From Desulfobacterales bacterium (GTDB taxonomy: Bacteria; Desulfobacterota; Desulfobacteria; Desulfobacterales; JAHEIW01): a stretch of 52,789 nt of DNA. Positions within the stretch are counted from its first letter, which is position 1, and each line of letters starts with the position of its first letter. This document shows, in pieces, positions 9,868 to 48,792 of this stretch. The notes below the pieces were generated by a model. That model saw only the letters and a list, made by a program, of their open reading frames with translations, ran no database searches and was not told the origin of the DNA. The stretch spans positions 1 to 52,789 of the forward strand of contig JBFFCW010000001.1 of the NCBI GenBank assembly GCA_041559695.1, written 5' to 3'. Both the position numbers and the translations under genes were made by a program.

Positions 9868-9881
9868 ATTCTCACCTCCTT

Positions 9882-15435: not shown

Positions 15436-15455
15436 AAGTATCACCTCCTTTGCTG

Positions 15456-17641: not shown

Positions 17642-19027
17642 ATGGCTTTCAAAGAGAAAGTGGGCGTGTTCGAAACTTATGATCGAGCACGCACCGGTCC
17701 CAGGGTCGATGAAAAGGAATGGGATCGAAAGATCACATTTCAAACGGCAAGCAAGTTAAAGGAAAAATACAAACTTAAATTCGACCGATCCAAGATCATC
17801 CCCACTGATACCGACATGATAGATCGATTATACCAGGCCGGTCTTGAAATGCTTGTGGAAATGGGTGTTTTTTGCATGGATACGGGTCGCGTCATCAAGT
17901 ACACTGAAGATGAAGTCCTGATGGCTGTTGCCGGAGCGCCTCATGAGCTTACGTTGGGTGAAGGTCGCGATGCGCGCCAGCTGGCAGGCAGAAGTTTCGA
18001 TGATCCCCGCCCACCCCTGAATCAAGGTGGTCCTACCGGGGCTCCTGTATCGGAAAACATTTTTATTCCCATGCATGAGGCCTACGCTAGAGAACCTTTG
18101 GTAGATGCCATCGTTAACGGGGTCTTGTCCACCATCAACGGCAGGGAGCCTAAGCCCGGTTCTCCATGGGAGATAGCCGCCGTCAAAGGAGAGGTCTCAA
18201 TGATCCGGATGGCGATGACGCGGGCCGGTCGTCCCGGCATGGCCATGTAGGGGAGCGAAACATCACTGACTGCCGCCGGTGTGGTGGCGGCTGATTTTCC
18301 TGGGGGCATGAGAGCCTGCGACAGCCACGAAGTGAGCCAATTAAACGAGCTTAAAATTGACATCAATGCGCTCACCTTCACGGCACATTACAGGTTAGCG
18401 GGCGACATCATCATGAGCGAGCAGATGCCAATCATTGGGGGCTGGGCCGGAGGGGTCGAGGAGACCTCTATCGTGAACGTCGCCACCCATTTGGCCGCTT
18501 TTATTATGGTCGGAGCGGACTGGCATTTGGACGGACCCATTCACGTACGCTGGGGCAACACCACGGCCAGGGAGCCGTTGATGGTTGCCGGCCATGCGTG
18601 TCGGGCTGTGGATCGCAATACGCACCTGTTGCTGGGAAATCAGTACTATACCTCCGCGGGACCTTGCACTGAAATGTGTCTGCTGGAAGCGGCGGCCCAG
18701 GCCATAACGGATACGGCCAGTGGCCGCGAGATCATGAGCGGATGCGCTTCGGCCAAAGGCGTGGCCCTGGATTATACCACCGCCATGGAAGCCCGGTTCA
18801 TGGCTTACGCAGCCAGAGCGGTGGCGGGAGTCGAAACTGAAAAGGTCAATGCGATGCTGGATAAGCTGGTGAGCATGTATGAGACCAAGTTCAAAGAGGC
18901 GCCCAAAGGCAAGACCTTTCAAGATTGCTACGATGTGAGCACCCTGACGCCTTCCGATGAGTATTTGAAGGTGTTTGATGGCGCGCTTAAAACCATGGAG
19001 AAAATCGGATTTAAATTTAAAATTTAG
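17642..19027 (+). CDS. mtmB: Monomethylamine:corrinoid methyltransferase MtmB with in-frame UAG (Pyl) at 18248-18250, codon 203
   Basis: ORFs 17642-18250 and 18281-19027 are in the same frame. AGRPGMAM-TAG-GSETSLTAAG..DSHEVSQLNELKID matches M. barkeri AGRPGMGV-Pyl-GPETSLSAQG..DSHEVSQLNELKID. The remainder is also colinear (GPCTEMCLLEAAAQAITDTASGREI). Confidence 0.9.
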
Positions 19028-33230: not shown

Positions 33231-35581
33231 TCCTGCGGGCTTTTAGGCGCGGGTGAAAAGTAAATTGAAAAAGCCGTTCCGCCTGAGCCATAACAATCCT
33301 CCTGTCTTTTGCAATGGGTGCACTCGCTGATATTGTCCGGGCAAATATCACTTTCCTGCGGTATGTATCCACATCGCGAGGTGTCCACGTCTATTTTAAA
33401 ATGATAGCGCTCCGAAAAGATTTTCATCCGCAACAGATCCACCCCTTTGCCTCCGGCACTGAAGTCAAAGGGGGTTTTGGTTGAATAGGCCATGGTATCG
33501 TGGGTTGTAAAAAAGCCCTCAAATATCCGTTTTTTGTTTTCTTGCGTAACGCCGACACCGTAATCACGAACCACAAGCGCAGTGCCCTGCCTTTTTTTTT
33601 GGACACTCACCTCCACCTTCCCCTCATCCGGCGTGTTTTCCACGGCATTGCGAATCAGACCATCAACGATCTTTTGCAGAACATATACCGGAATGCATAT
33701 GGCCGGCGCCGGCTCCAGCCGGCTGATGATGTTCATCTGGCGGTGGGAAAAGGACGGGCTCAAATGCTCGAGCCTTTGCTTGACAAATTCATTCAGCAGA
33801 ATGTTTATCGAAACAAAATCACTGGAACCATATATGGCGTCAATCCGGTTTCTTACACGCTTTAAAATCGGCTGCTCACCGCCTTCGTCGGTGAGCAGCG
33901 CATCCAGTTCATCGATGCACTGATCGAGTATGTTCGAAAGAACCTGATGATGGGTGTTATACTGCTTATTTCGCATGATGTCTTCCACAACGTATTGAAT
34001 CTCCATAATGCGATTCAGATTCCGTCGGGCCCTTTCCATTACGGCGGTCCAATCCTTCGGGGGCAGCGCCGCCATTTTTTTTGCCAGAGAGCGCAGGGAA
34101 AGGGAAAGGACGGAGACCGGGGTTTTCAATTCATGCGATAAGTGACTGATAACCTTGTCTTTGGCCCGATTCAAACTCATGACTTCCCGGTGGGCTTGCT
34201 TTATTTCCTCGGAAAACCTGGCGTTCTCAATGGAAAGGGCGACGGTTCCCGATATCATACTCAACAGCTCAATATCGGTTTGATCAAAGACCCCTTCCTT
34301 CTTGTTGATGGCGCATAACACCCCGATCGTGCGATCGCTGCTTTTTAAAGGCACCTCAAGAAGGTTCCGGGTATGGTATCCGAATTGCTTGTCTCTTTCG
34401 GGATAAAGATCGGGGTCCTTGGAGGCATCGGGCACAATAATCGGCTCACCGGTCTGAATGACCTTTCCCGCGACGATTTGATCCATATGAAAACGCGTTT
34501 CCTTGACCCTTTTTTGGGTGGTCATATCATCATAAGCCGCACCGGGAAAATAAAGCTCCTGACGCTTTTCATCCAGCAATATAACAAGGGCGCCTTCGGA
34601 GCCCAGGAGCCGCTTGACCTCGCTGCTGATAAAATCCAAAAGGCCTTCCAGATCAGGATGTTCCGGAAGTGCCATGCTGATCCGGCGCATCACCCCCTTG
34701 TTTCGCGCAATACCCTTTTCCAGGGTGATATCTCTGAGGATAATGAGCGCTCCAGCCGGTTCGCCTTTGGACTCGGTATAGACAACACCCCTGGTCACGA
34801 CGTCCAGAATCCGACCATCTTTTGTCATCCGTTTGGTTTCATACGGAAAGAGCCCGCCTTCTTCGAGGAGTCTCCGGAAGCTTTCACCGGCTTCCAACTC
34901 AATTTCCGGGGATCCATAGGGGAGTTTCTTTCCCTTTAGTTCCTCAATGGTCCAGCCGAAAAGTTTTGTGAAGGATGGGTTCAGATAGGAAACCCGGCCG
35001 TCCAGGTTAAATACCACAATCGGGCTGGGAACCACATCCAACAAAGCCCTGAATCGTTTCTCCGACTCGCGCAGGGCCTCCTCGGCAAGCGTCCGCTCGG
35101 TGATATCGGTGATGAAACCCTCTAAGGCCAGCAGGTCGCCGTTCTCCACAAACACCCCTTGACCCTGTTCCCAGACCCATTTTTCCCGACCTGAAGCCGT
35201 TTGGATGCGGTATACCATCCGGAAGGGCTGACGTTTCGCCAGGGCTTTCTGTACCTGCTTCCAGGCAGACTGACGATCATCGGGATGGATCAACTCACTG
35301 TAAGAAAGCGTCCGATTTCCAATCAGCTCCGAAGGGGCATAACCGGTCAGCTCATAGCACCCCTCGCTAATGAATTCCATGGTCCAGTTTTCATCGTTCA
35401 GACAGCGATAAGCCATGCCCGGCAGATTGCCGATCAGTGTGGACAGCACCCGTTGGCTCTCATGCAGCGATTCCTGGGTTTGAGCATGCTTGATTTCACA
35501 GGCTTCCAACTCGGATATCCGCCGACGCAATTCGGTCAGCTCATTTTCGAGTTGTTCTTTGGATTTATTTTCCTTTTTCAT
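33227..35581 (-). CDS. Sensor histidine kinase (coiled coil, two PAS domains, GAF, HisKA, HATPase, Cys-rich tail)
   Basis: H-box ISHLSHELKTP and ATPase DYGVGV. The tail reads CPDNISECTHCKRQEDC. No transmembrane segment. It converges on the 32730 receiver gene with a 4-nt overlap. Confidence 0.8.
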   Translation of the reverse strand: MKKENKSKEQLENELTELRRRISELEACEIKHAQTQESLHESQRVLSTLIGNLPGMAYRCLNDENWTMEFISEGCYELTGYAPSELIGNRTLSYSELIHPDDRQSAWKQVQKALAKRQPFRMVYRIQTASGREKWVWEQGQGVFVENGDLLALEGFITDITERTLAEEALRESEKRFRALLDVVPSPIVVFNLDGRVSYLNPSFTKLFGWTIEELKGKKLPYGSPEIELEAGESFRRLLEEGGLFPYETKRMTKDGRILDVVTRGVVYTESKGEPAGALIILRDITLEKGIARNKGVMRRISMALPEHPDLEGLLDFISSEVKRLLGSEGALVILLDEKRQELYFPGAAYDDMTTQKRVKETRFHMDQIVAGKVIQTGEPIIVPDASKDPDLYPERDKQFGYHTRNLLEVPLKSSDRTIGVLCAINKKEGVFDQTDIELLSMISGTVALSIENARFSEEIKQAHREVMSLNRAKDKVISHLSHELKTPVSVLSLSLRSLAKKMAALPPKDWTAVMERARRNLNRIMEIQYVVEDIMRNKQYNTHHQVLSNILDQCIDELDALLTDEGGEQPILKRVRNRIDAIYGSSDFVSINILLNEFVKQRLEHLSPSFSHRQMNIISRLEPAPAICIPVYVLQKIVDGLIRNAVENTPDEGKVEVSVQKKRQGTALVVRDYGVGVTQENKKRIFEGFFTTHDTMAYSTKTPFDFSAGGKGVDLLRMKIFSERYHFKIDVDTSRCGYIPQESDICPDNISECTHCKRQEDCYGSGGTAFSIYFSPAPKSPQD

Positions 35582-35716
35582 TTGGCCGCACCCATATGAG
35601 CGATCATATTACCATAAACAAAGTGCAATTATAATTATTCTACCCAACATTCTCAACCCCAAAACCGTTGCACTCCTGATAATCCGTAAAAATGCCTTTT
35701 GTAGCGTCAATTAAAC

Positions 35717-35766
35717 TGAAAATAGTCCTGCGTGCTAATAAAAATCATCCATCGGACCATTGAAAT
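35717..35766 (+). promoter_or_regulatory. Conserved operator/promoter box, copy D, upstream of the mtrH-like operon
   Basis: TGAAAATAGTCC-N12-AAAATCATCCATCGGACCATTGAAAT. TTGAAA, then 17 bp, then TATACG (35783-35788). Confidence 0.55.
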
Positions 35767-36017
35767 CATTTTGGATATTGTTTATACGGTCAACTATAAA
35801 AAGCATCACAATCATTTGCATTCCTTTTGGAGCGCATTGTTAATTTCAAAGCGATCGAGGGCGGTAAAAATTGGTCAGTCGCTGGCTATTTATACGCACT
35901 GATTTAAGCCGTTCAGCATACGTTTGTCAGGGGCGGAATTTCCCTCGAATTCCAATTTTTTGGTTCGCTCTACGAAGGAAATTCATATAATTCTTAAACA
36001 TTAGGGGAGGTTAAATC

Positions 36018-36968
36018 ATGTTTAAATTTGAAACCGAGCAAAAAGTTTGTGAGGTAGGCGGAGTGAAGTTTGGCGGGCAACCCGGAGAGTACCCCACGGC
36101 GGTTTGCGCTTCCATCTTCCAAAAAGGGGATAAAGTTTTCACCGGAAAGCGTAAGGAGGGGTTCGACGAAAAGCGGGCTGAGGAACTGCTCAAAACCCAG
36201 GATCGCTTGACGGAAGAAACCGGCATCCCGGGCATGGCCGACATCGTGGCCAATACGGGACAGGAATTTGAAACATTTATTGATTTTGTTGCCTCTGCCA
36301 GCGATATGCCGTTTTGCATCGATGCCTGGGTGATGAAGCCTAAATTGGCAGGCGCAGCCTACTGCGCGGAAAAGGGCCTTTTGGACCGCATGTTTTACAA
36401 CAGCCTGACCGTATGGGAAAAAGATCTGGAAACGGAAATCCGCGAAATATCTCAAATTGGTGTCAAGCACGTGCTTTTGGTGGCCTTTGACCAGGAAGAT
36501 CAATTGCCCAGCGGCCGCATTACCGGAACCCAAAAGCTTTTAGACGCCATCGAGAAGGTCGGCGCCGAGTTTGAAAGCATTTTTGTCGACACCTCCGTGA
36601 TGAATGGCCCGGCCACAGCCTTTTGCGGTATTGCAAACCGGATGATCAAGGAGAAATGGGGATTTCCAGGGGCCAGTGCGCCAAGCAACGGCTCCTATAT
36701 GTGGAAAAAAGCCCAGGAGTTATGGGGTTTCAAAGGCTGGGCTGCTGCCGATGCCGGCCTGGAGGCTCTTTCTGCTTTCATGTACCACGACATGATATTC
36801 TCCGGGCCCATGGCCGGAGCAACAAGGATCTTTCCGGCCGTAGCGATGGCCGACGCCTTTTTGGCCACCGCAGCGTTCGCCGAGACAAAGGAATTTCCCA
36901 AAGATCAAAATCACCCGTTGTATAAGTTGTTCCCGGAGTTTGTTGAACAGCTTAAAACCATTGGATAA
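36018..36968 (+). CDS. MtrH-family methyltransferase (probable methylcorrinoid:pterin methyltransferase)
   Basis: MFKFETEQKVCEVGGVKFGGQPGEYPTAV matches the archaeal MtrH N-terminus MFKFDKEQMVIDFAGAKFGGQPGEYPTAL. FPAVAMADAF is also conserved. Confidence 0.8.
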   Translation: MFKFETEQKVCEVGGVKFGGQPGEYPTAVCASIFQKGDKVFTGKRKEGFDEKRAEELLKTQDRLTEETGIPGMADIVANTGQEFETFIDFVASASDMPFCIDAWVMKPKLAGAAYCAEKGLLDRMFYNSLTVWEKDLETEIREISQIGVKHVLLVAFDQEDQLPSGRITGTQKLLDAIEKVGAEFESIFVDTSVMNGPATAFCGIANRMIKEKWGFPGASAPSNGSYMWKKAQELWGFKGWAAADAGLEALSAFMYHDMIFSGPMAGATRIFPAVAMADAFLATAAFAETKEFPKDQNHPLYKLFPEFVEQLKTIG

Positions 36969-37064
36969 GTCTCTGATTATTTCTGAGAATCAGATTGTCG
37001 GATAAGATTCGAGAAAACAATACAACAATAATCAAGTGCGACTAAATGTATAAGGAGGTTAAAA

Positions 37065-37742
37065 ATGGCTTCAGAAGAAAGAACAAAAGAAATCATAAAC
37101 GAGATTCGTCAGGCACTGATAAACTATGATGAGGATGGCGTGCAAGAGTGGTGCAAAACTGCCCTGGACGAAGGTGTTGACCCATTCCGCGCAACCATGG
37201 AAGGGATTGCCGACGGGATGATAGAGGTGGGAGATCTTTACAATAAAAAGGAATACTTTGTCCCTGAACTGCTGCTTTGCTCGGATGCATTATATGCCGG
37301 ACTGGACATTCTAAGGCCGGCCATCAAGGAATCGGGCCGGGAATCCGAGGCCAAAGGCTCCATCGTCCTGGGTGTGGTCGAGGGCGATGTTCATGACATC
37401 GGTAAGAACCTGATCAAGATGATGTTCGATGTCGCCGGATGGACCGTTTATGATCTGGGAAAGGATGTGCCGCTAGAAAAATTTCTGGAAGAGCAGATGA
37501 AGACGGATTGCGACATCGTCGGTCTCTCCGCACTGATGACCACCAGCATGGTGGCGATGCCCGAAATTGTAAAGAAGCTGAAAGAGAAAAATCCCAACGT
37601 CCGCATCATGCTCGGTGGCGCTCCCATCACACCGGAACTTGTAGACACGTACGGCGCTGACGGCTATGCAGAAAGCGCCGGGACCGCCGTTGACGAAGCG
37701 ATCAAACTGATCAAGATGCTGAAGGAAGAAGAAATGAAATAG
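37065..37742 (+). CDS. B12-binding corrinoid protein
   Basis: [15 protein letters not shown] and GGAP motifs. AAGGAGG RBS. It ends TAG-TCC-TGA. Confidence 0.85.
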   Translation: MASEERTKEIINEIRQALINYDEDGVQEWCKTALDEGVDPFRATMEGIADGMIEVGDLYNKKEYFVPELLLCSDALYAGLDILRPAIKESGRESEAKGSIVLGVVEGDVHDIGKNLIKMMFDVAGWTVYDLGKDVPLEKFLEEQMKTDCDIVGLSALMTTSMVAMPEIVKKLKEKNPNVRIMLGGAPITPELVDTYGADGYAESAGTAVDEAIKLIKMLKEEEMK

Positions 37743-37846
37743 TCCTGATGGCTTAAAACCGCGACGGTACCAATATTGAAGGCCCGGTAAGGGATTCATC
37801 AAGCGCTAACAGTACTTAACCACAATATATCGAAAGGGAATGAAGT

Positions 37847-40800
37847 ATGCCAGGAAATGAGGAAGATAAATATTTAGTCATTTTTCAGCCATCCGGGTGC
37901 CGGGGCTACCTTGAGAAAGGAACGAGCCTTAAAGAGGCCTCGGTGGCGCTGGGTGTTGATATAGAGGGCGTATGCGGCGAAAAGGCCATTTGCGGCACGT
38001 GCAAGGTTCGCATCGAAGAAGGTAATTTCGAGAAATACGGCATAACGTCAACCCGGGAAAATCTTTCCCCCATGGGGCCGACGGAAAGAAAGTTCTTCAA
38101 TCTCCAGCAGGAGGAAGAAGGCTACCGTCTGGCCTGCCAGACAAAGATACTGGGAGATGTCGTCCTGTTCGTCCCCGAGGAGAGCCGCATGGGCAAACAG
38201 GTCGTCCGCAAAGCGGCCACCGACAGGCCGATGAATTTAAACCCGGCGGTAAAGAAGTACTATGTGGAGCTTAAAAAGGCCACCCTGGAGGATACCCTCG
38301 GCGACCTGGAGCGGCTTACAAACGCACTTGAAAAAGAGTACAACCTGAGTAATCTCTCGATTGATTATCAGGTGCTCATGGAACTCCAAACCGTCGTACG
38401 TGAAGGTGATTGGAAGATAACCGCAACCGTCTGGCATAATAAAGAGATCATCAAAGTCGAGCCGGGACGTGTCGAAAAGGTTTACGGTCTTGCGGTGGAT
38501 GTGGGTACATCCACAGTTGCCGGTTACCTTTGTGATTTGACGGACGGCAAAGTTCTGACGACCGGCTCCATGATGAATCCGCAGGTGGTATATGGCGAAG
38601 ATGTAATGTCCCGTATCAGTTTCACCATGACCAACCCCAGAGGTCTCGAGATCCTAAACGGTGCCATTATTGACGGCCTCAACGGAGTTGCGGATGAGGT
38701 TGCATCCGCAGTGGGTATTAAACGACAGGATATCGTCGATATGTCCATCGTGGGCAATACCTGTATGCACCATATCTACCTGAATACCGATCCGAAATAT
38801 ATCGGTCGTTCCCCTTTCCCGCCCGCACTTCATCACTCAATCGATATTAAAGCCCGGGACTTTGGACTCAAAATAGAACCGGAGGCTGAAGTCGCCGGCA
38901 AGGGTATCTGGCCGCCCTGCCAGGTCGCATGCCCGGCCGGGGTCAACGGACAGGACTTCCTGTATCTCATCGCCCAGGGCAAGCACCGGGAAGCCCTCGA
39001 ACTGGTTAGGATGGCCATTCCCTTTGCCGGAGCGCTCGGGCGTATTTGCAACCATCCCTGTGAAACCGAATGCGAAAGACAATTTGTGGAAGAACCGCTT
39101 TCCATCCGCTCGCTGCATCGTTTTATTGCCGATTACGAGATCGAGCAGGGCCGGGAGAAAGCGGCACCCATCGAGAAAACAAAAGAGGAAAAGATTGCTG
39201 TCGTCGGTTCCGGGCCGGCCGGGCTTGCCTGCGCTTTTGAGCTGGTCAAAAACGGATATCCGGTGACGGTCTTTGAGGCGGAATCCGAGTGCGGCGGAAT
39301 GATGCGTTATGGCATACCCGAATACCGGCTGCCCAAAGAGATCCTGGATGACGAGATCAACTATATTAAGGAACTGGGTGTGGAGATAAAAACCAACAGC
39401 CCGGTGGACAGCATTGAGAGCCTTTTCAATCAGGGGTATAAGGCGATCTTTCTGGGTACGGGCGCCTGGTCAAGCTTGAAGCTGGAAATTCCTGATGAAG
39501 ATGCGGACGGCGTCATCCACGCCCTTGATTTTCTTAAGAAGGCCAATACCGGTGAAACGGTCGCGCTGGGTGATAAGGTGGCGGTTATTGGCGGCGGAAG
39601 CGTCGCCATCGATTCCGCCAGGCTGGCCCAGCGGCTGGGCGCCGGCGAAGTCAACCTGATTTGTCTGGAATCCACCGACCTGACCTGTGCGGACAGAATG
39701 ACGGCCCAGGACATGGAAATTGGACAGGCCGCGGAAGAAGGCGTTATTGTGCATCCGAATCTCGGCGTCGCCAAGATCCTGACGCAGGACGGCAAGGTCA
39801 CGGCCCTCGAAACTTCAAGTTGCGTCTCCGTGCTCGATTCGGAAGGCAGATTTGATCCTAAATTCAGCGACGAACCGACCCCCACCATACCGGCGGACAC
39901 CGTGATTGTTGCCATCGGTCAGAAACCGGACGGAAAAGACTTTAGCGAGCTGGAAAAATACCCGTCCGGTATTATCAAAGCAGACAAAACCACCCTGGAA
40001 ACAAATATTGCAGGGGTCTTTGCCGGCGGTGATGTGGCCTCCGGGCCGGCTGACGTCATCGGTGCTGTTGCCGGCGGTAAGAACGCCGCTATTTCCATTG
40101 AGCTTTATCTGGCCGGAATGGATGTTAAGGAATCCAGACCTGCGCCTCTTTTACGCATCGAAGAGGTGCCCAAGGATGGCGTGGTAAAAGAGGCGAGACA
40201 GGCGGAGCCCCTGCTCGAACTGCAAAAACGCAAAGGGCTTGCCGAGGTCGAGCTGGGCTATGAGGAGCAGGCGGCCAAACAGGAATCACAGCGTTGTCTG
40301 CACTGTGGCGTTTTTGCCCAGAAGGAATCCTCCGATATTGCCCAGGCCCGCGGCGTCGGGCTTAAAATCTCCCCGGGGGCCTATGTCCATGTGCTTCCGA
40401 TCGAGGCTGGCTTTGTCGGAGCCGATAATGTCGGGGTGCTCATTGCCGAAGAGCCTTACAAGCAGGATAAAATAAAGCTTATTATCGATATCGGAACCAA
40501 CGGTGAGATCATCTTCGGTAATAAAAAGATGCTGATCTCGGCATCCTGCGCCACCGGTCCTGCCTTTGAGGGCGCCGAGCTGAAATTCGGCATGCGCGCG
40601 GCGCCGGGGGCGATTGAAAAGGTGGAAATTAATCCGGAAACCAAAGATGTCCGCTTCAAAATTATTGATGAAACCCGCTGGAATACCGAGATGAAGTCGG
40701 AGGAAGTGGGCGCCAAGGGGCTCTGTGGATCCGGCATCATTGATGCCATCCCCCAGCTTTTTCTGGCAGGCGTTATCGACAAAACGGGAAAGTTTTTAAA

Positions 40801-41299
40801 GGACGATTCCAATCCCCGCCTGCGTATAGCGGATGACCAGTACGAGTATGTTATTGCCTGGGCCAAGGAGACGTCAATCGGTCAGGATGTTGTCGTCTGT
40901 CAGGACGATATCCGGGCGATACAGCTGGGTAAGGGTGCCATGTATGCGGGCAGCAAGATCCTGCTGGAAACCCTCGGAGTCGAGAAGGTAGACGAGGTCG
41001 TTTTGGCCGGTGCCTTTGGAAGTTACATAGACAAGGAATCGGCAGCGGTACTGGGGATGTTTCCCGACTGTGAACCGGAGAATGTCTATTCCGTGGGGAA
41101 TGCTGCGGGCGATGGTGCGCGTATGGCGCTGCTCGACGTTGATAAACGCAAGGAGGCCGATGAATTCGCCAGGAAGGTGGAGTACATAGAACTGACGGTG
41201 AATCCTGAGTTTGAAAAGACGTTTGCCAAATCTATGTGGATACCGCATATGAAGGATAAGTTTCCGAACCTCAGTCACATTTTACCGCAAAAAAAGTAA
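37847..41299 (+). CDS. RACo-type corrinoid reductive activase with an inserted GltD-like NAD(P)H/FAD/FeS oxidoreductase module (1150 aa)
   Basis: The N-terminus has a 2Fe-2S motif (CGEKAICGTCKV) and ASKHA motif GLAVDVGTSTVAGY. The insert at 38894-40345 carries CQVACPAG..CNHPCETECER, KIAVVGSGPAGLACAFEL, KVAVIGGGSVAIDSAR and FAGGDV. The ASKHA fold then resumes (AGFVGADN, IDIGTNGE, CATGPAFEGA). Confidence 0.85.
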   Translation: MPGNEEDKYLVIFQPSGCRGYLEKGTSLKEASVALGVDIEGVCGEKAICGTCKVRIEEGNFEKYGITSTRENLSPMGPTERKFFNLQQEEEGYRLACQTKILGDVVLFVPEESRMGKQVVRKAATDRPMNLNPAVKKYYVELKKATLEDTLGDLERLTNALEKEYNLSNLSIDYQVLMELQTVVREGDWKITATVWHNKEIIKVEPGRVEKVYGLAVDVGTSTVAGYLCDLTDGKVLTTGSMMNPQVVYGEDVMSRISFTMTNPRGLEILNGAIIDGLNGVADEVASAVGIKRQDIVDMSIVGNTCMHHIYLNTDPKYIGRSPFPPALHHSIDIKARDFGLKIEPEAEVAGKGIWPPCQVACPAGVNGQDFLYLIAQGKHREALELVRMAIPFAGALGRICNHPCETECERQFVEEPLSIRSLHRFIADYEIEQGREKAAPIEKTKEEKIAVVGSGPAGLACAFELVKNGYPVTVFEAESECGGMMRYGIPEYRLPKEILDDEINYIKELGVEIKTNSPVDSIESLFNQGYKAIFLGTGAWSSLKLEIPDEDADGVIHALDFLKKANTGETVALGDKVAVIGGGSVAIDSARLAQRLGAGEVNLICLESTDLTCADRMTAQDMEIGQAAEEGVIVHPNLGVAKILTQDGKVTALETSSCVSVLDSEGRFDPKFSDEPTPTIPADTVIVAIGQKPDGKDFSELEKYPSGIIKADKTTLETNIAGVFAGGDVASGPADVIGAVAGGKNAAISIELYLAGMDVKESRPAPLLRIEEVPKDGVVKEARQAEPLLELQKRKGLAEVELGYEEQAAKQESQRCLHCGVFAQKESSDIAQARGVGLKISPGAYVHVLPIEAGFVGADNVGVLIAEEPYKQDKIKLIIDIGTNGEIIFGNKKMLISASCATGPAFEGAELKFGMRAAPGAIEKVEINPETKDVRFKIIDETRWNTEMKSEEVGAKGLCGSGIIDAIPQLFLAGVIDKTGKFLKDDSNPRLRIADDQYEYVIAWAKETSIGQDVVVCQDDIRAIQLGKGAMYAGSKILLETLGVEKVDEVVLAGAFGSYIDKESAAVLGMFPDCEPENVYSVGNAAGDGARMALLDVDKRKEADEFARKVEYIELTVNPEFEKTFAKSMWIPHMKDKFPNLSHILPQKK

Positions 41300-41308
41300 A
41301 CCAACGGT

Positions 41309-41345
41309 TGTGAAATTCCCCGCCCAAAAGGGCGGGGAATTCACA
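41309..41345 (+). other. Strong GC-rich intercistronic stem-loop
   Basis: TGTGAAATTCCCCGCCC-aaaa-GGGCGGGGAATTCACA (12 perfect bp plus a 4-bp extension with one bulge). There is no U-tract. Confidence 0.6.
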
Positions 41346-41365
41346 AAACAGGAGGAAAATGAGAT

Positions 41366-42409
41366 ATGAACACAGAACTTAGCTCCAAAGAGAGAGTGCT
41401 TAAATTTTTTGCACGGGAACAGATAGACCGTCTTCCGGTCTTCAGCGGCTATGGGAATGTAACCGTACACGGACTTGAGAAATACGGCTGGAATTTTGCC
41501 GAGATACATGTGGACGCCAATAAAATGGCAAGCGTGGCGGCGTCCACCTATCAGCTCTTTGGTTTAGAATGTGCAGCCGTCCCCTTTGATATGGGGGTTG
41601 AGGCCGAAGCCCTTGGCGCCGGCGTAAACTTTTATTCCCACCACACCGATATCGTTTACCCCACCATAACAAAAAAGGTGTCGGAAACCGTAGCGGATCT
41701 GGACCTGCAGGTCCCGTCGGATCTGGCCGAGGCGGGGCGGATTCCTTTGGTCGTAGACGCGATTGGCCAGTTAAAAGCGGAAATCGGCGATCAAGTGCCG
41801 ATCGCGGCATGGGTGCTGGGGCCCTATACCCTGGCCGGGCAACTTGTCGATATTGGCGATTTGGCCAAGATGGCGTTTAAAAAGAAAGACATGGTCGATG
41901 GGGTACTGGACAAGCTAGCGGATGTACTCATCGAAATATCGGGGATCTATAGAGAAGCGGGGGCTGACTACATTACCGTCCGCGAGATGGGGGCTGGGCC
42001 GGATATATTGAGCCCGCGTATGTTTAAAACCCTTATTCGGCCCCATCTGGAGAAAGTCTTCAAGGGCTTGGCATCGCCCAAAATCCTGCATATTTGTGGA
42101 GATACGAATACCATTGTCGAGGAGATGGCCCTCTGCGGGGCAGACGCCATCAGCGTAGACCAGGTGAACGACGTGGCGGAATCGCGCAAGAAGTTGGGAT
42201 CGGATGTATGTATTTTGGGCAATGTCGATCCTTATAAAGTAATTGTGACCGGAAGCCCGGAGGATGTGGACAATGCCGTAAAAGAAGCCGTTGCGAACGG
42301 TGTCAGTGCCATCTGGCCCGGGTGTGACATTTTCCCGGCCGCTCCCAAGGAGAACATGGAAGCGCTGATTGCCGCGACGCAGAAATATGGTAAGCTCGAG
42401 CCTTGTTAA
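41366..42409 (+). CDS. UroD-family (MtaA/MtbA-like) methyltransferase
   Basis: KERVLKFFAREQIDRLPVF..AAVPFDMGVEAEALG..LHICGD. GGAGG RBS. Confidence 0.8.
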   Translation: MNTELSSKERVLKFFAREQIDRLPVFSGYGNVTVHGLEKYGWNFAEIHVDANKMASVAASTYQLFGLECAAVPFDMGVEAEALGAGVNFYSHHTDIVYPTITKKVSETVADLDLQVPSDLAEAGRIPLVVDAIGQLKAEIGDQVPIAAWVLGPYTLAGQLVDIGDLAKMAFKKKDMVDGVLDKLADVLIEISGIYREAGADYITVREMGAGPDILSPRMFKTLIRPHLEKVFKGLASPKILHICGDTNTIVEEMALCGADAISVDQVNDVAESRKKLGSDVCILGNVDPYKVIVTGSPEDVDNAVKEAVANGVSAIWPGCDIFPAAPKENMEALIAATQKYGKLEPC

Positions 42410-42514
42410 AAAGGTATAGACCTTTTGATTTGAAGAGGCATCGCCGCATGTGTTCAGTAATGGGCTGTGCCTCTTCAGTTTTCTGCGAATCTTCTTTATA
42501 CGGAGAAAATTCAC

Positions 42515-43111
42515 ATGAAAGGTAATAAAGTCGTACCGTTCCAAAGCACCGGCAATATTTCCCAATCATTGCTGCAACGGCTCTTTGATAAGGGAAAAAC
42601 TCATGGCCTGGAGGCCATCACGCCTATTTGTACAGAAGATATCATTGTTGCCGAATGGGTCAATTTGAAATGCCGCTATGGTTGCAACCGCTATAACACC
42701 ACCTGGTGTTGTCCGCCGGCCACACCTGGACCTGATGAGGCGCGTAAGATTCTTGGAGAATTTTCTTCAGCGCTGCTTTTGGAGGTCCGGCAGCGGTATC
42801 CGGAATTTTATCTAAATAATACCCGAAAAAGAATAAAACAGGTACGCGGCTGGAAGGTAACCGTTAGCTTGGAACGTCTACTTTTTCTGGAAGGATTTTA
42901 TAAAGCGTTCAGCCTGGTGGGGGAATGCTGCGCCCTGTGCAAGGAATGCATCTACCCGGAAAATTGTCGTTTTCCGCAGGAAAAACGGCCATCGGTGGAG
43001 TCGTTTTCGATTGATGTGATCGGGACACTTCAACTTCTTGGCAAAACTCCCCAGGTTGCTGAAAATACGAAAGATTCATTTAATTACTACAGCATCATAC
43101 TATTGGAGTAA
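42515..43111 (+). CDS. DUF2284 Cys-rich predicted metal-binding protein
   Basis: LKCRYGCNRYNTTWCCPP and GECCALCKECIYPENC. GGAG lies 9 nt before ATG 42515. Confidence 0.65.
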   Translation: MKGNKVVPFQSTGNISQSLLQRLFDKGKTHGLEAITPICTEDIIVAEWVNLKCRYGCNRYNTTWCCPPATPGPDEARKILGEFSSALLLEVRQRYPEFYLNNTRKRIKQVRGWKVTVSLERLLFLEGFYKAFSLVGECCALCKECIYPENCRFPQEKRPSVESFSIDVIGTLQLLGKTPQVAENTKDSFNYYSIILLE

Positions 43112-43120
43112 ACGGTTTGT

Positions 43121-43708
43121 TTACACATTCACTCCGATGAGAATCGTTCCCAATCCTTTTTCATGGATGCCATCGAAATACTGCGCTTTTAAAAACGTAT
43201 CGCCAAGTGTACTCGGATTTGCATAGATAATGGAATGATTCTCAATCGCCTCATCGTCCAGCTGGCACCAATCCGCTTGAAGACCCGGAATTTCAAAATG
43301 GCATATTTTTTTCATTAAATCTTGCGGAAAAGAGACTTTGTCTTTATAAATAACAAAGTTTTGGTGCATAAACCAGACATCTTTACGGTCCGACAATTCG
43401 GCAAGGTGCTCTTTATCCCGGACCTCTTCACCCACCAGGTCCTGTCCTTTTTTCATAACCAAACTGGGCTGACAGCCCCAGTCAAAATCCATATTCGTCA
43501 GGGCGACATAAATAAATTCGCAGGTCAAAACTTCCCGTACGCCGGCATTGACGACATTACCGAGTCCCATAAAGGCCTTCTTTTCCGCTTCCTGCTCAAC
43601 ATCAAGCATCTTCCGGCGATCATCGCTTGCAAAAGGGCCGGCTTTCACTATGCCCTTTACGCTTTTTAAGGCTATGGTCATACTCTTGTCTATTTTCCGT
43701 CTATTCAT
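43121..43708 (-). CDS. Hypothetical protein (195 aa), family not recognised
   Basis: Clean ORF convergent with the DUF2284 gene. I could not identify any motifs. Confidence 0.4.
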   Translation of the reverse strand: MNRRKIDKSMTIALKSVKGIVKAGPFASDDRRKMLDVEQEAEKKAFMGLGNVVNAGVREVLTCEFIYVALTNMDFDWGCQPSLVMKKGQDLVGEEVRDKEHLAELSDRKDVWFMHQNFVIYKDKVSFPQDLMKKICHFEIPGLQADWCQLDDEAIENHSIIYANPSTLGDTFLKAQYFDGIHEKGLGTILIGVNV

Positions 43709-43815
43709 GGCCTTAGCGCCTTTAACGATAGGTTTGAATTGAAATGATGACGATTTGGCACGAACAAATTTACAAATCCGGCTTTTCCATGCGCTCGTAT
43801 CTCTTAAAAATCGAA

Positions 43816-46624: not shown

Positions 46625-48007
46625 TCAAGATATTTTTTGTTTAAACTTGTTGACACAGTTAATTTCCAAATTTAGCAATTTTGCGATGCGAAACTTGGCA
46701 TCAATTCCTTTTGCCACGCCAGGGCATTCATTCAGGGCCCCAAGATCCATATCTTCCCTGACTTCTCTCATGGCAACCGGATCTGCGATATCTTCCACCG
46801 AAACCCCGAGCCTGCCGGCCACATACTTCTTGGCGTCCTCAATCCGCATCGCCCGGTTCAGCTGCAAACGCGCCACCAGATCTCCGGCAGTGCGTAATCC
46901 GCCCATCCCCGAAACGATTGCATGTGCCGCATGCATCCCGTAAGGGTCGCCAACGCCCACCTACAATCCGTCCAATCTACAAATCTCAACATGCGCTTTG
47001 GAAGCTCTCGCCAGGGCGTCCACCGGCGGGGAAATCGCCATTGGAACGCCACCCACACCCATTCCCAGATTGGCATGTACCGGGATATCGGATGCCTCCG
47101 AACAGGCCTTTGTATAGGTGAGGGCCCGGGCCAGGTTGAAAGGCAGTGATTTGCTGGGGACGACATTGATGGCCGGTCCGAAGATCGTAGCCCCTGCTTT
47201 TTGTGCCAGTTTTATTTGGTCGTGGGGATAGAGCCCCGCCAATCGGACCCCATCGTATTCGACCTCACCATGCAACCCCATTATGAATTCCGAAGCCATT
47301 CCCATTTCAATGCCCATCTCGGGATATTTCTTTTTAAGGATCTCCACTGCTTGGAGCGCCGCGAGAAACTCCGCATCTCCCGCCGCAGCGGTGGTGTCAA
47401 AATTAATGCCATCTGCTCCGGTTTCATACATTTCACTGCCCACATAGACCATGTCTTTTACCGCATAATCTATCGCCTCTTCAAAAGAGGCCCTGCCTTC
47501 GGCGATCTTCCCCTGAGCGAACAGATCCAGTGGATTGGGGCAGGGACCGACGGGTTGGCTGTACAATCCCAAATTCGGCATCGCACCATAAAGAAGGGCC
47601 GGAATGGTAATTAATAACGCCTGTTCCATGATGGGTTTCTCGAATACCACGATGGGTTTTACCGGTTTATAGCTGTAGTCAATGTGAGCAAGCTCCAGGG
47701 TATCGGCGCCGAGTGCCCTTTCAAAAATCTGTAATGATTGGATTTTACTCAGCGAGACGTGTGCGCGCTTGATTTTAGTGGTACAGCTGTCGTAGGTAAG
47801 GCAAACCTCCTTTCCTTTTTCAACACCGACCACCCGATCCGTACATTTGTGGATTTCATACAAGTACTGAAGTTCATCTTTGGTAAGAACCGGGATCTTT
47901 GCTCTGTCTGCAGCATCGGTCGTCCCTTTTTCAAGATCTTCCCGGAGTTCGGCTCCGGTCATTTCGCACCTGATACCGTCACCCATTCTGGTTTGGATTT
48001 TTTCCAT
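46625..48007 (-). CDS. Divergent MtbB-family methyltransferase with in-frame UAG (Pyl) at 46961-46963, codon 349
   Basis: ORFs 46961-48028 and 46625-46960 abut in the same frame. LDGL-TAG-VGVGDPYGM retains the MtbB Pyl context. Other regions are conserved ([36 protein letters not shown]), but the [11 protein letters not shown] segment of canonical MtbB is missing. GGAGGAAG RBS before ATG 48007. Confidence 0.85.
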
Positions 48008-48024
48008 TGTCTTCCTCCATTTAC

Positions 48025-48792
48025 TCAATCGGTTTTAGAATTCAGATATGCCTTGACCGAATCCCAGGTCTTTAATAAGATTCTATGGGTGCCTTCACAG
48101 ACGTCCGTACGGAAACCAAACATCTCATTGAAAGCCTCGATATTTCGTCTCATTTCTGCAAGACACATAATCGGTGTTTGAATCAGCAGAGAGCGTTCAT
48201 AATGCTTGAATAGCCGTTTCGCCATTTCAGCGCTTAGGTTGCCGAACTCCTGCTCGAACATGCGCTTCCAATGGTATGTCCAGCCGGGTATCATAAAAAA
48301 GGTGCCCGCCACCCGGCACTGTTCTTCGTAATAGCGTTTGCGCCCACCGATAATCAGACCGATACAATCGTCAACCGGATGATCCTCATCCATGGGGATA
48401 AAAACAGGCACCCCGGCATCGGACAGCAGTCCCCCGGGATTTTCAAATGCGTTCCCGCACAAACCGTATCCAAGCATCAGAGCATCCACGCGAGGCCCAA
48501 ATGCCATTGCTGCCTCAATTAATCCCTGTTGAAGGGTGTGTTTGCGAATATGCAAGGCCAGCTCTAAAACACCGACCAAGACTTCCAGAGCAATTTGGGG
48601 ATCCGGGGTGAAATCATTCAGATGGGCGATCCGATTTAACTTGTCTTTATTGGTGGACTCAAAGGCAGCAATCAAGCGCGCGGATCGCTCATTCTCAAGA
48701 ACCGTAATGCGGCCGACTTCCTTATCCACCGCCAACAATTCGGCAAATTCCAGTTCCAGAATCTCACAGGTCAGCACGCCCAAAATTGCCAT
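48025..48792 (-). CDS. DUF1638-like protein (family assignment tentative)
   Basis: 255-aa ORF with an LGYGLCGN motif. It lies immediately upstream of the mtbB paralogue, with its stop 18 nt before that gene's start. Confidence 0.5.
   Translation of the reverse strand: MAILGVLTCEILELEFAELLAVDKEVGRITVLENERSARLIAAFESTNKDKLNRIAHLNDFTPDPQIALEVLVGVLELALHIRKHTLQQGLIEAAMAFGPRVDALMLGYGLCGNAFENPGGLLSDAGVPVFIPMDEDHPVDDCIGLIIGGRKRYYEEQCRVAGTFFMIPGWTYHWKRMFEQEFGNLSAEMAKRLFKHYERSLLIQTPIMCLAEMRRNIEAFNEMFGFRTDVCEGTHRILLKTWDSVKAYLNSKTD

What the first reader, a model, noticed from the sequence alone, without database searches (positions are those of the whole stretch)
37847..41299. A corrinoid reductive activase carries a complete GltD-like NAD(P)H flavoenzyme inserted inside its ATPase domain
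The ORF begins as a normal RACo-type activase and is colinear with the partial RACo at 1-1058. It has a plant-type 2Fe-2S motif and then the ASKHA phosphate-1 motif GLAVDVGTSTVAGY. After ARDFGLKIEPEAEV (38852-38893), about 484 codons (38894-40345) encode a full glutamate-synthase-small-subunit-like module. That module has the Cys cluster CQVACPAG..CNHPCETECER, the FAD fold KIAVVGSGPAGLACAFEL, a second Rossmann fold KVAVIGGGSVAIDSAR and FAGGDV. The ASKHA fold then resumes with a near-duplicate junction peptide (ARGVGLKISPGAYV, from 40346), followed by AGFVGADN and IDIGTNGE. This is a domain insertion with a duplicated seam, not an end-to-end fusion. Characterised activases (RamA, RACo, O-demethylase activating enzymes) rely on an external low-potential donor. 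This architecture could hard-wire electron flow from NAD(P)H through FAD and FeS clusters to the 2Fe-2S centre and then to Co(II), coupled to ATP. I am not aware of this architecture having been described.
Basis: partly seen in the sequence, partly recalled or inferred. Interest (0 to 1): 0.75.

Follow-up and report, generated by a model that had tools for sequence, protein, structure and literature searches.

The report
Corrinoid activase with built-in NAD(P)H reductase
A repair enzyme that uses ATP to re-reduce oxidised vitamin-B12-type cofactors carries a complete NAD(P)H-flavin-iron-sulfur reductase module spliced into its ATPase fold, so it probably supplies its own electrons; the design is conserved in many uncultured anaerobes, and I found no study of it.

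Summary
ORF 37847-41299 is an intact 1150-aa gene. It has the [2Fe-2S] domain, linker and first ASKHA lobe of a RACo-type activase. A 484-codon Fer4_20 + FAD + NAD(P)H module follows (aa 350-833). The ASKHA fold then resumes after a repeated 14-residue seam. It is not a misassembly. The exact protein belongs to a 90%-identity cluster of 61 members, and at least 120 such clusters share the full architecture (61-93% identity). Members occur in Desulfobacterota and Dehalococcoidia and sit in a conserved operon: corrinoid protein, this gene, an MtrH-like methyltransferase and a UroD-type methyltransferase.

First, the insert is not a canonical GltD. It is the circularly permuted cassette of StnC/NfnABC-A, whose RCLxC segment lies at its C-terminal end, so both ends probably meet at the Fe-S subdomain. 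Second, among 1.84 billion 50%-identity representatives, only one carries this architecture. Third, sister operons have insert-free activases, and one relative (L005) keeps both seams but has lost the module.

The best reading is a self-sufficient, ATP-dependent activase fed by NAD(P)H (confidence about 0.6; not tested biochemically). I found no paper that describes it. I rate it a new variant of a known kind.

The parts
37847..41299 (+). Whole gene: 1150-aa RACo-type corrinoid reductive activase with an inserted NAD(P)H/FAD/Fe-S module
   Evidence: Intact ORF. Pfam and NCBIfam domains. At least 120 full-length homologue clusters.
37868..38176 (+). N-terminal plant-type [2Fe-2S] ferredoxin domain (aa 8-110; ligands Cys43, Cys49, Cys52, Cys97)
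   Evidence: Pfam Fer2, 30 bits against a cutoff of 21. The four Cys are invariant in 31 family members. Aligns to RACo 3ZYY residues 3-88.
38216..38476 (+). RACo linker region (aa 124-210)
   Evidence: Pfam RACo_linker, 98 bits.
38483..38893 (+). First ASKHA lobe (aa 213-349) with the phosphate-1 motif DVGTST (aa 218-223); ends at Raco_middle profile position 137 of 163
   Evidence: Pfam Raco_middle. D218, G220 and T223 are invariant.
38852..38893 (+). Seam copy 1, ARDFGLKIEPEAEV (aa 336-349)
   Evidence: The AF2 model shows strand 332-335 and helix 336-339, then a low-confidence linker.
38894..40345 (+). Inserted module (aa 350-833): a circularly permuted GltD/NfnB-like cassette of the StnC/NfnABC-A type
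   Evidence: Sequence match to 9bov_A residues 101-569, E 2.5e-102. Foldseek to 9bov_A, 9n5u_A and 8oh5_C: rmsd 3.1-4.1 A, 37-40% identity. NCBIfam PRK12771, 437 bits. dN/dS 0.12 against L002.
38912..39151 (+). Fe-S subdomain (aa 356-435) with invariant Cys358, 362, 401, 405, 409 and invariant His424; predicted to bind two [4Fe-4S] clusters
   Evidence: Pfam Fer4_20 positions 30-112 of 113. Invariant residues. H424 aligns with StnC Lys170 and the NfnB Glu cluster ligand.
39191..40078 (+). FAD and NAD(P)H Rossmann domains (aa 449-744): GSGPAGL, GGGSVAID, FAGGDV. The beta2 motif is CLESTDLTC in place of YRRS.
   Evidence: Pfam Pyr_redox_2, 114 bits. Motif survey of the family.
40199..40312 (+). 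Permuted tail of the insert (aa 785-822) carrying ..AEVELGYEEQAAKQESQRCLHCG. It supplies Cys817 and Cys820 to the Fe-S subdomain.
   Evidence: Moving the tail in front of aa 355 extends the Fer4_20 match from 30-112 (68.6 bits) to 3-112 (85.5 bits). The rearranged sequence then aligns colinearly with NfnB 4ylf_B residues 15-211.
40346..40387 (+). Seam copy 2, ARGVGLKISPGAYV (aa 834-847)
   Evidence: Strand 846-849 (YVHV) rejoins the ASKHA fold in the AF2 model.
40388..41272 (+). Rest of the ASKHA ATPase (aa 848-1142) with phosphate-2 IDIGTNGE (aa 880-887) and the adenosine motif AGAFGSY
   Evidence: Pfam RACo_C_ter, 316 bits. Aligns to 3ZYY residues 334-623. Motifs are invariant.
36018..36968 (+). 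MtrH-family methyltransferase (probable methyl-corrinoid:tetrahydrofolate methyltransferase)
   Evidence: Pfam MtrH. NCBIfam NF002142, 289.6 bits against a cutoff of 287. Role of bacterial MtrH homologues from PMC8630106.
37065..37742 (+). Corrinoid (B12-binding) protein, the presumed substrate of the activase
   Evidence: Pfam B12-binding_2 + B12-binding. Orthologue adjacent to the fusion gene in L001, L002, L003, L004, L081-L083.
41366..42409 (+). UroD-fold MtaA/CmuA-family methyltransferase
   Evidence: Pfam URO-D. TIGR01463, 241 bits against a cutoff of 235. 58-69% identical orthologue beside the fusion gene in L001 and L004; a URO-D gene sits in the same place in L081/L082 and L083.
42467..43111 (+). 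DUF2284 predicted metal-binding protein, last gene of the same-strand cluster
   Evidence: Pfam DUF2284, 143.7 bits.

Best explanation
The gene encodes a self-sufficient reductive activase for the neighbouring corrinoid protein.

Shown:
- It is a RACo/RACE-type activase with all parts present: the [2Fe-2S] domain, the linker, and an ASKHA ATPase with intact ATP motifs.
- Between the two ATP-phosphate motifs of the ASKHA fold it carries a complete Fe-S flavoprotein cassette.
- That cassette is the kind which, in StnC of the StnABC transhydrogenase, oxidises NADPH at FAD and passes single electrons along two [4Fe-4S] clusters.

Inferred mechanism:
- NAD(P)H reduces the FAD.
- Electrons leave one at a time through the His424-ligated proximal cluster and the distal [4Fe-4S] cluster.
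- They reach the tethered N-terminal [2Fe-2S] domain.
- That domain delivers them to Co(II) of the corrinoid protein while ATP binding and hydrolysis raise the Co(II)/Co(I) potential, as in canonical activases.
- The module therefore replaces the external ferredoxin or flavodoxin donor.
- The window's subclade may prefer NADH, because its YRR motif is replaced by CLE.

Origin: most likely one insertion of a pre-existing permuted cassette whose two ends lie together. The event left a 14-codon duplicated seam and was followed by spread between phyla.
For: Architecture and cofactor motifs:
- Domain layout and motifs.
- The 2Fe-2S cysteines, seven insert cysteines plus His424, the FAD and NAD(P)H glycine motifs, and ASKHA phosphate-1, phosphate-2 and adenosine motifs are invariant in 31 members spanning 61-93% identity.
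- Purifying selection acts on the insert (dN/dS 0.12) as on the flanks (0.07-0.08). The linkers are the least conserved parts.

Identity of the insert:
- The closest solved structures are the NADPH/FAD/2x[4Fe-4S] module of NfnABC and StnC.
- In StnC this module (aa 102-565) follows a [2Fe-2S] domain, is itself an inserted domain, is non-bifurcating, and feeds electrons linearly from NADPH (PMC10482914).
- The permutation brings the insert's N and C ends to the same Fe-S subdomain.

Context:
- The corrinoid protein, activase, MtrH and UroD genes sit together in Syntrophales, Dehalococcoidia and two further metagenome contigs; Desulfobacteraceae L002 keeps only the corrinoid protein next to the gene.
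- Orthologous operons in the sister clade use an insert-free activase, so the module is an add-on to a working activase.

Thermodynamics:
- Activase [2Fe-2S] is at -330 mV. Co(II)/Co(I) shifts to -250 mV with activase plus ATP (PMC6739815).
- NAD(P)H E0' of -320 mV is established knowledge.
Against: - There is no biochemical evidence. Cofactor content, donor specificity and ATP dependence are all inferred from sequence.
- The AF2 model is only moderate (pLDDT 72.7, pTM 0.44), and both junctions have low confidence. Nothing is therefore known about the distance between the distal [4Fe-4S] cluster and the [2Fe-2S] domain.
- L005, nested in the clade, lost the module yet keeps an intact gene. The module is thus dispensable in at least one lineage.
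- One insert-bearing member (P0098) groups with insert-free proteins at 78% NJ bootstrap. The gain and loss history is not a clean single event.
- NAD(P)H at -320 mV is nearly isopotential with the [2Fe-2S] cluster, so the driving force depends on the cellular NAD(P)H/NAD(P)+ ratio and on ATP.
Confidence: 0.6

Rival explanations
1. The module is an electron input, but it works by flavin-based electron bifurcation or confurcation. The NfnB-like FAD would send one electron down the low-potential [4Fe-4S] path towards Co(II) and the other to a higher-potential acceptor such as the [2Fe-2S] cluster or a partner. This would lower or replace the ATP requirement.
For: The fold is that of NfnB, the bifurcating subunit of NfnAB. 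The Arg next to the flavin (R494, equivalent to StnC R239 and NfnB R201) is invariant. One polypeptide offers both a [2Fe-2S] centre and a two-cluster [4Fe-4S] branch.
Against: The nearest relatives are StnC/NfnABC-A cassettes, whose FAD was shown not to bifurcate (PMC10482914). The proximal-cluster ligand is His, not the Glu of bifurcating NfnB. All ATP-binding motifs remain invariant, which argues that ATP is still needed. No second acceptor is encoded in the operon.
Confidence: 0.07
2. The module does not donate the activating electron. Instead it senses or buffers the NAD(P)H/NAD(P)+ ratio to gate ATPase and activase activity, or it drains electrons from the [2Fe-2S] cluster to NAD(P)+. 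Ferredoxin or flavodoxin remains the true donor.
For: NAD(P)H and the activase [2Fe-2S] cluster are nearly isopotential, so flow could run either way. L005 lost the module and keeps an intact gene. P0043's contig also encodes a canonical activase next to the fusion gene.
Against: Every known context of this cassette is electron transfer between NAD(P)H and Fe-S chains: StnC, NfnABC, and fusions to DHO_dh, HdrA/FlpD and FAD_binding_2. Full conservation of two clusters plus FAD is costly for a mere sensor.
Confidence: 0.12
3. The module performs a separate NAD(P)H-dependent reaction of the same pathway, such as reducing a disulfide or another product of the UroD-type methyltransferase. It would be fused to the activase only for co-expression or scaffolding.
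For: The UroD-type neighbours belong to the MtaA/CmuA family, which often uses thiol acceptors. The substrate of the operon is unknown.
Against: The cassette has no substrate domain of its own. It lacks a redox-active CxxC disulfide of the thioredoxin-reductase type. Its only conserved extra features are Fe-S ligands. Insertion inside a fold with short linkers is an unlikely way to join two unrelated activities.
Confidence: 0.08
4. Artefact: a chimeric assembly or a decaying pseudogene that joins a RACo gene and a gltD-like gene.
For: The contig comes from a metagenome. Read-level data could not be inspected.
Against: The exact protein has a 61-member 90% cluster drawn from independent JGI, ENA and NCBI assemblies. 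At least 120 clusters carry the same junctions. The reading frame is intact. dN/dS is about 0.1.
Confidence: 0.01

Closest known systems
RACo (AcsV) of Carboxydothermus hydrogenoformans (PDB 3ZYY, 4C1N) and the [2Fe-2S] activating enzymes of O-demethylase and methoxydotrophy systems (A. dehalogenans AE, MtoD, RamQ)
   Same: Same order of [2Fe-2S] domain, linker and ASKHA ATPase. Aligns over RACo residues 3-338 and 334-623. Encoded next to a corrinoid protein and its methyltransferases. MtoD is likewise a 2Fe-2S activase in an MtrH, UroD-type and corrinoid-protein operon (PMC8630106).
   Different: Known members are about 630-690 aa and need an external reductant: Ti(III) citrate in vitro, ferredoxin or flavodoxin proposed in vivo. 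This protein has 484 extra residues inside the ASKHA fold and a duplicated seam. It scores below the AcsV cutoff (447.6 against 800).
GltD-like NADPH module of StnC (StnABC transhydrogenase, PDB 8OH5) and of NfnABC subunit A (PDB 9BOV, 9N5U)
   Same: 37-40% identity, rmsd 3.1-4.1 A over 476-505 aligned columns. Same permuted order with RCLxC after the flavoprotein domains. Binds FAD, NADPH and two [4Fe-4S] clusters. It is itself an inserted domain following a [2Fe-2S] domain and passes electrons linearly.
   Different: The host is a NuoG/FdhF-like scaffold in a bifurcating complex, not an ATPase. The proximal-cluster ligand is Lys170 in StnC but an invariant His424 here. StnC Cys114 has no counterpart (Gly368). 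The window clade lacks the YRR motif.
NfnB / glutamate synthase small subunit GltD / dihydropyrimidine dehydrogenase N-terminal domains
   Same: Fer4_20 + Pyr_redox_2 fold, FAD and NAD(P)H Rossmann motifs.
   Different: In these proteins the RCLxC segment is N-terminal, so they are not permuted. This protein scores well below the GltD cutoffs (TIGR01317: 202 against 447.7). There is no partner large subunit.
RamA (methanogen-type activase with two C-terminal [4Fe-4S] clusters)
   Same: ASKHA corrinoid activase. A RamA-type gene lies in the same window at 10697-12394.
   Different: RamA lacks the N-terminal [2Fe-2S] domain and has no flavin module. TIGR04270 scores 124.5 against a cutoff of 500.
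Methionine synthase reductase, flavodoxin/FNR systems, and 'self-sufficient' fusions such as reductase-fused reductive dehalogenases (functional analogues; my own knowledge plus the title and abstract of PMC10463259)
   Same: NADPH-derived electrons are used to re-reduce or reduce a protein-bound corrinoid. The reductase is fused or dedicated.
   Different: Unrelated folds. Methionine synthase is reactivated by reductive methylation with SAM, not by ATP hydrolysis.

Membership tests
RACo/RACE-type corrinoid reductive activase ([2Fe-2S] + ASKHA) | N-terminal plant-type [2Fe-2S] domain with four Cys ligands | tested here: met
   Pfam Fer2, 30 bits against a cutoff of 21. Cys43, 49, 52 and 97 are invariant. 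Aligns to 3ZYY.
RACo/RACE-type corrinoid reductive activase ([2Fe-2S] + ASKHA) | RACo_linker, Raco_middle and RACo_C_ter domains in order | tested here: met
   98, 174 and 316 bits, all far above their cutoffs. Raco_middle is split at profile position 137 of 163 by the insert.
RACo/RACE-type corrinoid reductive activase ([2Fe-2S] + ASKHA) | ASKHA ATP-binding motifs (phosphate 1, phosphate 2, adenosine) | tested here: met
   DVGTST, IDIGTNGE and AGAFGS are invariant across 31 members. The motif names rest on established knowledge of the ASKHA superfamily.
RACo/RACE-type corrinoid reductive activase ([2Fe-2S] + ASKHA) | Encoded with a corrinoid protein and corrinoid methyltransferases | tested here: met
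   Window genes. Conserved in L001, L004, L081-L083; L002 and L003 keep only the corrinoid protein next to the gene.
RACo/RACE-type corrinoid reductive activase ([2Fe-2S] + ASKHA) | ATP-dependent reduction of Co(II) to Co(I) on the corrinoid protein | not testable with these tools
   Needs purified protein and an anoxic UV/vis assay.
AcsV (CoFeSP-specific RACo, NCBIfam NF040756) | Score at or above the curated cutoff of 800 bits | tested here: not met
   447.6 bits. No CoFeSP or ACS genes were seen nearby.
RamA (TIGR04270) | Score at or above 500 bits; C-terminal two-[4Fe-4S] ferredoxin domain | tested here: not met
   124.5 bits. No C-terminal Fer4 domain.
StnC/NfnABC-A-type permuted GltD cassette | Fer4_20 Fe-S subdomain completed by an RCLxC segment located after the flavoprotein domains | tested here: met
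   Permutation test, 68.6 to 85.5 bits, profile coverage 30-112 to 3-112. The tail aligns to 9bov_A 541-568, 8oh5_C 540-567 and 9n5u_A 568-595.
StnC/NfnABC-A-type permuted GltD cassette | FAD (GxGxxG) and NAD(P)H (GxGxxA) Rossmann folds | tested here: met
   GSGPAG and GGGSVA are present and their glycines invariant. Foldseek rmsd 3.1 A.
StnC/NfnABC-A-type permuted GltD cassette | Basic YRR(S/T) motif after beta2 of the NADPH fold (its role in binding the 2'-phosphate is my own knowledge of Rossmann folds) | tested here: not met
   The window has CLESTDLTC. 18 of 31 family members have the CLE variant and 13 of 31 keep YRR(S/T).
StnC/NfnABC-A-type permuted GltD cassette | Lys ligand (StnC K170) to the FAD-proximal [4Fe-4S] cluster | tested here: not met
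   The equivalent residue is an invariant His424.
Glutamate synthase small subunit GltD (TIGR01317/TIGR01318) | Score at or above the curated cutoff; canonical N-terminal RCLxC; partner GltB | tested here: not met
   202 bits against 447.7 and 199 bits against 483. The module is permuted. No gltB gene was seen among the ORFs scanned in the window.

The most novel reading that the evidence does not exclude
The fused flavin/Fe-S module does more than replace ferredoxin. The NfnB-like FAD, a His-ligated proximal cluster and the ASKHA ATPase would act together, so that NAD(P)H oxidation is bifurcated or conformationally gated by ATP. This would generate a low-potential electron for Co(II). It would be the first enzyme to combine flavin-based energy coupling and ATP-driven electron transfer in one polypeptide.
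Probability: 0.07. Interest if true: 0.85.

Novelty: new variant of a known kind. Interest (0 to 1): 0.6.

Why it matters
The physiological electron donor of RACE/RACo-type activases is poorly defined. In vitro work relies on Ti(III) citrate or Eu(II)-DTPA, and ferredoxin or flavodoxin are only proposed donors. A natural activase with a built-in NAD(P)H reductase has three uses:
- It gives a directly testable answer for one lineage.
- It is a practical tool: corrinoid methyltransferases could be activated with NAD(P)H plus ATP instead of strong chemical reductants.
- It is a clean case study of domain insertion. A permuted cassette whose ends meet has been reused as an inserted module in two unrelated hosts, the NuoG-like StnC and an ASKHA ATPase. 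Here a seam duplication and a scarred deletion derivative (L005) are still visible.

The protein also marks a conserved, uncharacterised four-gene methyltransferase operon shared by marine-sediment-type Desulfobacterota and Dehalococcoidia.

Tried and rejected
- Misassembly or pseudogene: rejected, because the same junctions recur independently and the gene is under purifying selection.
- Canonical GltD identity: rejected. Scores fall below the family cutoffs and the order is permuted.
- AF2 model for inter-domain geometry: uninformative. pTM is 0.44, the junctions have low confidence, and no coordinates were available.
- Promoter and terminator scan of 35500-43800: no more sites than in shuffled sequence.
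- Composition profile: the insert is only slightly GC-richer (0.54-0.58 against about 0.51), with no sign of recent foreign origin.
- A stand-alone gltD-like gene next to insert-free sister activases (a pre-fusion state): none found within 6 kb in any of 76 insert-free loci.
- RACo structure paper (PNAS 2012): not held in the library. Domain statements therefore rest on Pfam, motifs and alignment to 3ZYY.
- Nine literature searches for the fusion found nothing relevant. The only DUF4445 paper concerns reactivation of a split methionine synthase; that reading is from my memory of the paper, as one search returned only its title and abstract.
- Strict single origin: not fully supported. P0098 groups with insert-free L006 and L009 at 78% NJ bootstrap.

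Full report
**1. Observation**

The ORF 37847..41299 (+) is open for 1150 codons. A plausible ribosome-binding site (AAGGGA) lies 7 nt upstream of the ATG.

Pfam places the domains in this order:
- Fer2, aa 25-101
- RACo_linker, aa 124-210
- Raco_middle, aa 213-349, stopping at profile position 137 of 163
- Fer4_20, aa 356-435
- Pyr_redox_2, aa 449-744
- RACo_C_ter, aa 876-1142

NCBIfam matches the two flanks to the activase AcsV and matches aa 354-822 to PRK12771 'NAD(P)-binding protein'.

The phosphate-1 motif (DVGTST, aa 218-223) lies upstream of the insert. The phosphate-2 motif (IDIGTNGE, aa 880-887) lies downstream. The module therefore sits inside the ASKHA ATPase fold, not at an end.

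**2. The seam**

The two seam copies share 28 of 42 nt. Extended by one residue to a 15-mer, they share 9 of 15 residues, and no other 15-mer in the protein shares more than 5 residues with copy 1.

Both copies correspond to one segment of ordinary activases:
- RACo 3ZYY residues 334-338 are aligned twice.
- Insert-free relatives read KARDLGI-KI.P.AYVHVLPIEAGFVGADN once.
- In those relatives the tblastn matches of the N and C halves overlap by exactly 14 codons.

In the AF2 model (pLDDT 72.7, pTM 0.44) the N-terminal half of copy 1 (strand 332-335, helix 336-339) and the C-terminal half of copy 2 (strand 846-849) are structured. Residues 341-359 and 821-837 are low-confidence linkers. The linkers are also the least conserved parts of the family.

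**3. Not an artefact, and a compact family**

- The exact protein is in the public collection, on a 52,789-bp NCBI contig (the length of this window). Its 90% cluster has 61 members from independent assemblies.
- A word-indexed search returned at least 120 clusters of 1097-1188 aa. All but two match at 99-100% of the query (those two at 95% and 97%); identity is 61-93% and the Pfam set is the same.
- An exhaustive HMMER scan of 1.84 billion 50%-identity representatives found only one representative (P0074) aligned end to end. All other hits are ordinary activases or GltD-like modules in other contexts.
- In one-genome-per-species contigs, four loci carry the insert: Syntrophales L001, Desulfobacteraceae L002 (77% identity, the closest), Thermodesulfobacteriota L003 and Dehalococcoidia L004. 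The other 76 loci returned encode insert-free activases of roughly 620-790 aa where full length.
- dN/dS against L002 is 0.07, 0.12 and 0.08 for the N flank, the insert and the C flank.

**4. What the insert is**

Its best sequence and structure matches are the NADPH/FAD module of NfnABC subunit A (9BOV, 9N5U) and of StnC (8OH5). These give E about 1e-100, 37-40% identity and rmsd 3.1-4.1 A over 476-505 aligned columns. NfnB, GltD and dihydropyrimidine dehydrogenase match less well.

The Stn paper describes this region as follows (PMC10482914):
- StnC aa 102-565 binds FAD, NADPH and two [4Fe-4S] clusters.
- It does not bifurcate.
- It passes electrons linearly.
- It is itself inserted into a NuoG-like scaffold directly after a [2Fe-2S] domain.

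The insert is circularly permuted relative to GltD and NfnB. Pfam Fer4_20 covers only positions 30-112 of the native insert (68.6 bits). When the tail (aa 785-821..AEVELGYEEQAAKQESQRCLHCG) is placed in front, coverage becomes 3-112 (85.5 bits). The rearranged sequence then aligns colinearly with NfnB residues 15-211. In StnC and NfnABC-A the same tail aligns after their flavoprotein domains. The two ends of the cassette should therefore meet at the Fe-S subdomain, which is what makes it insertable.

Invariant residues are Cys358, 362, 401, 405, 409, 817 and 820 plus His424. His424 occupies the position of StnC Lys170 and the NfnB Glu, the non-Cys ligand of the FAD-proximal cluster.

The same permuted type of cassette (Fer4_20 matched from about position 19-30 onward) is fused elsewhere to DHO_dh, HdrA/FlpD, FAD_binding_2 and ferredoxin domains. 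It is a promiscuous NAD(P)H input module.

**5. Donor specificity**

After beta2 of the NAD(P)H fold, 13 of 31 family members keep YRR(S/T), as do StnC, NfnABC and NfnB. The other 18, including the window, have CLE(S/T)xDLxx, which is five residues longer. By general Rossmann-fold rules (my own knowledge), loss of the arginines and gain of an acidic residue suggests a shift towards NADH. This is an inference only.

**6. Context**

The gene lies in a same-strand cluster with intergenic gaps of 57-104 nt:
- MtrH-family methyltransferase, 36018-36968
- corrinoid protein, 37065-37742
- this gene
- MtaA/CmuA-family UroD-fold methyltransferase, 41366-42409
- DUF2284, 42467-43111

Corrinoid protein, fusion gene, MtrH and a UroD-type gene sit together in L001, L004, L081/L082 and L083. 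L002 and L003 keep only the corrinoid protein next to the gene.

The insert-free sister loci L006 and L008 (Dehalococcoidia/Chloroflexi) and the more distant L013 (Actinomycetes) have the orthologous operon. Their UroD orthologues are 50-62% identical. The module is therefore an addition to a working four-component methyltransferase system of the O-demethylase/Mto type. The roles of MT1, MT2, corrinoid protein and activase are set out in PMC8630106. The methyl donor remains unknown.

**7. Evolution**

- NJ trees of the RACo core put all insert-bearing proteins except P0098, together with L005, in one clade with 100% bootstrap support.
- L005 (about 692 aa) keeps both seam copies and a few tail residues but lacks the module. 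It is a scarred deletion derivative.
- P0098 groups with insert-free L006 and L009 (78% bootstrap).
- The 14-codon direct repeat could mediate precise loss that restores a single seam. Flanking homology could mediate transfer of the cassette. Both ideas are speculation.
- The spread across Desulfobacterota and Chloroflexota at 60% identity or more implies lateral transfer of the operon.

**8. Mechanism**

Shown:
- All parts of a 2Fe-2S/ASKHA activase and of an NAD(P)H-FAD-2x[4Fe-4S] module are present, conserved and under selection.
- The protein is genetically linked to a corrinoid protein.

Inferred:
- The electron path is NAD(P)H, FAD, proximal [4Fe-4S] (His424), distal [4Fe-4S], tethered [2Fe-2S] domain, then Co(II).
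- ATP raises the Co(II)/Co(I) potential, as measured for a canonical activase (-530 to -250 mV, with the activase cluster at -330 mV; PMC6739815).
- With NAD(P)H at -320 mV (established knowledge) the chain is feasible but has little driving force before the ATP step.

Confidence in the self-sufficient activase reading is about 0.6. The rivals are bifurcation, redox gating or electron drain, a separate activity, and artefact. They are listed with their tests in the Rival explanations section.

**9. Comparison and novelty**

The protein is a member of the RACo/RACE activase family by every testable criterion. It is not AcsV or RamA, because it scores below their cutoffs. The insert is a member of the StnC/NfnABC-type cassette family by fold and permutation. 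It differs from that family in the proximal-cluster ligand and, in this clade, in the nucleotide motif. It is not a glutamate synthase subunit.

Nine full-text searches found no description of the fusion. Databases label it only generically.

Verdict: a real, conserved, apparently unstudied new variant of a known kind. Interest is about 0.6: it is moderately surprising to specialists, directly testable, and potentially useful.

Noticed in passing
window 17642-19027 (+); 8806-9885 (-) plus about 336 nt downstream; 14452-15444 (-) plus about 507 nt downstream; 46961-48028 (-) plus about 333 nt downstream: Four methylamine methyltransferase genes (mtmB, two mtbB, mttB) each contain an in-frame TAG at the position where the Pfam match breaks. 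The frame stays open for 111-258 further codons. This is the signature of pyrrolysine decoding, here in a probable Desulfobacteraceae contig.
   Followed up: partly
window 1-1058 (-), 10697-12394 (-), 37847-41299 (+): One contig carries three different kinds of corrinoid activase. The first is a partial 2Fe-2S RACo-type paralogue that runs off the contig end. The second is a RamA-type protein with a C-terminal 4Fe-4S dicluster domain, beside mtbB and a corrinoid protein. The third is the insertion-bearing activase.
   Followed up: partly
window about 160-190 (-): The partial RACo-type gene contains an A-rich tract (aagaaaaaaaagaaaaagaaaaaa) encoding eight consecutive lysines inside an extra acidic/basic loop. 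This could be a slippage-prone site or a sequencing-error hotspot.
   Followed up: no
window 39650-39700 (aa 602-618 of the fusion protein): The NAD(P)H-fold beta2 motif is CLESTDLTC in the window and in 18 of 31 family members. The other 13, like StnC and NfnB, have YRR(S/T). This may be a switch from NADPH to NADH within one family. P0053 and P0060 are sisters in the tree yet differ in this motif.
   Followed up: partly
window 39116-39118 (His424): An invariant His occupies the position of the non-Cys ligand of the FAD-proximal [4Fe-4S] cluster (Lys170 in StnC, Glu in NfnB). A His-ligated cluster would be a third variant at this position, possibly tuning the potential.
   Followed up: partly
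L005 4946-7111 (Deltaproteobacteria bacterium UBA5758): An activase of about 692 aa, nested in the insert-bearing clade, retains both seam copies and a few residues of the insert's tail but lacks the whole flavoprotein module. It is a natural scarred deletion.
   Followed up: partly
P0098 against L006 and L009: One insert-bearing protein groups with insert-free Dehalococcoidales activases (78% NJ bootstrap). This hints at precise loss or recombinational transfer of the cassette through the 14-codon seam repeat.
   Followed up: partly
window 7820-8386 (-) and 42467-43111 (+): Two DUF2284 (predicted metal-binding) genes each sit at the end of a corrinoid methyltransferase gene set. L008 also has one near its operon. 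The role is unknown.
   Followed up: no
P0122, P0127 (representative library): Other end-to-end fusions of RACo-type activases exist. One carries a C-terminal cyclic-nucleotide-binding domain (784 aa). Another carries a C-terminal partial UroD-type methyltransferase (911 aa).
   Followed up: no
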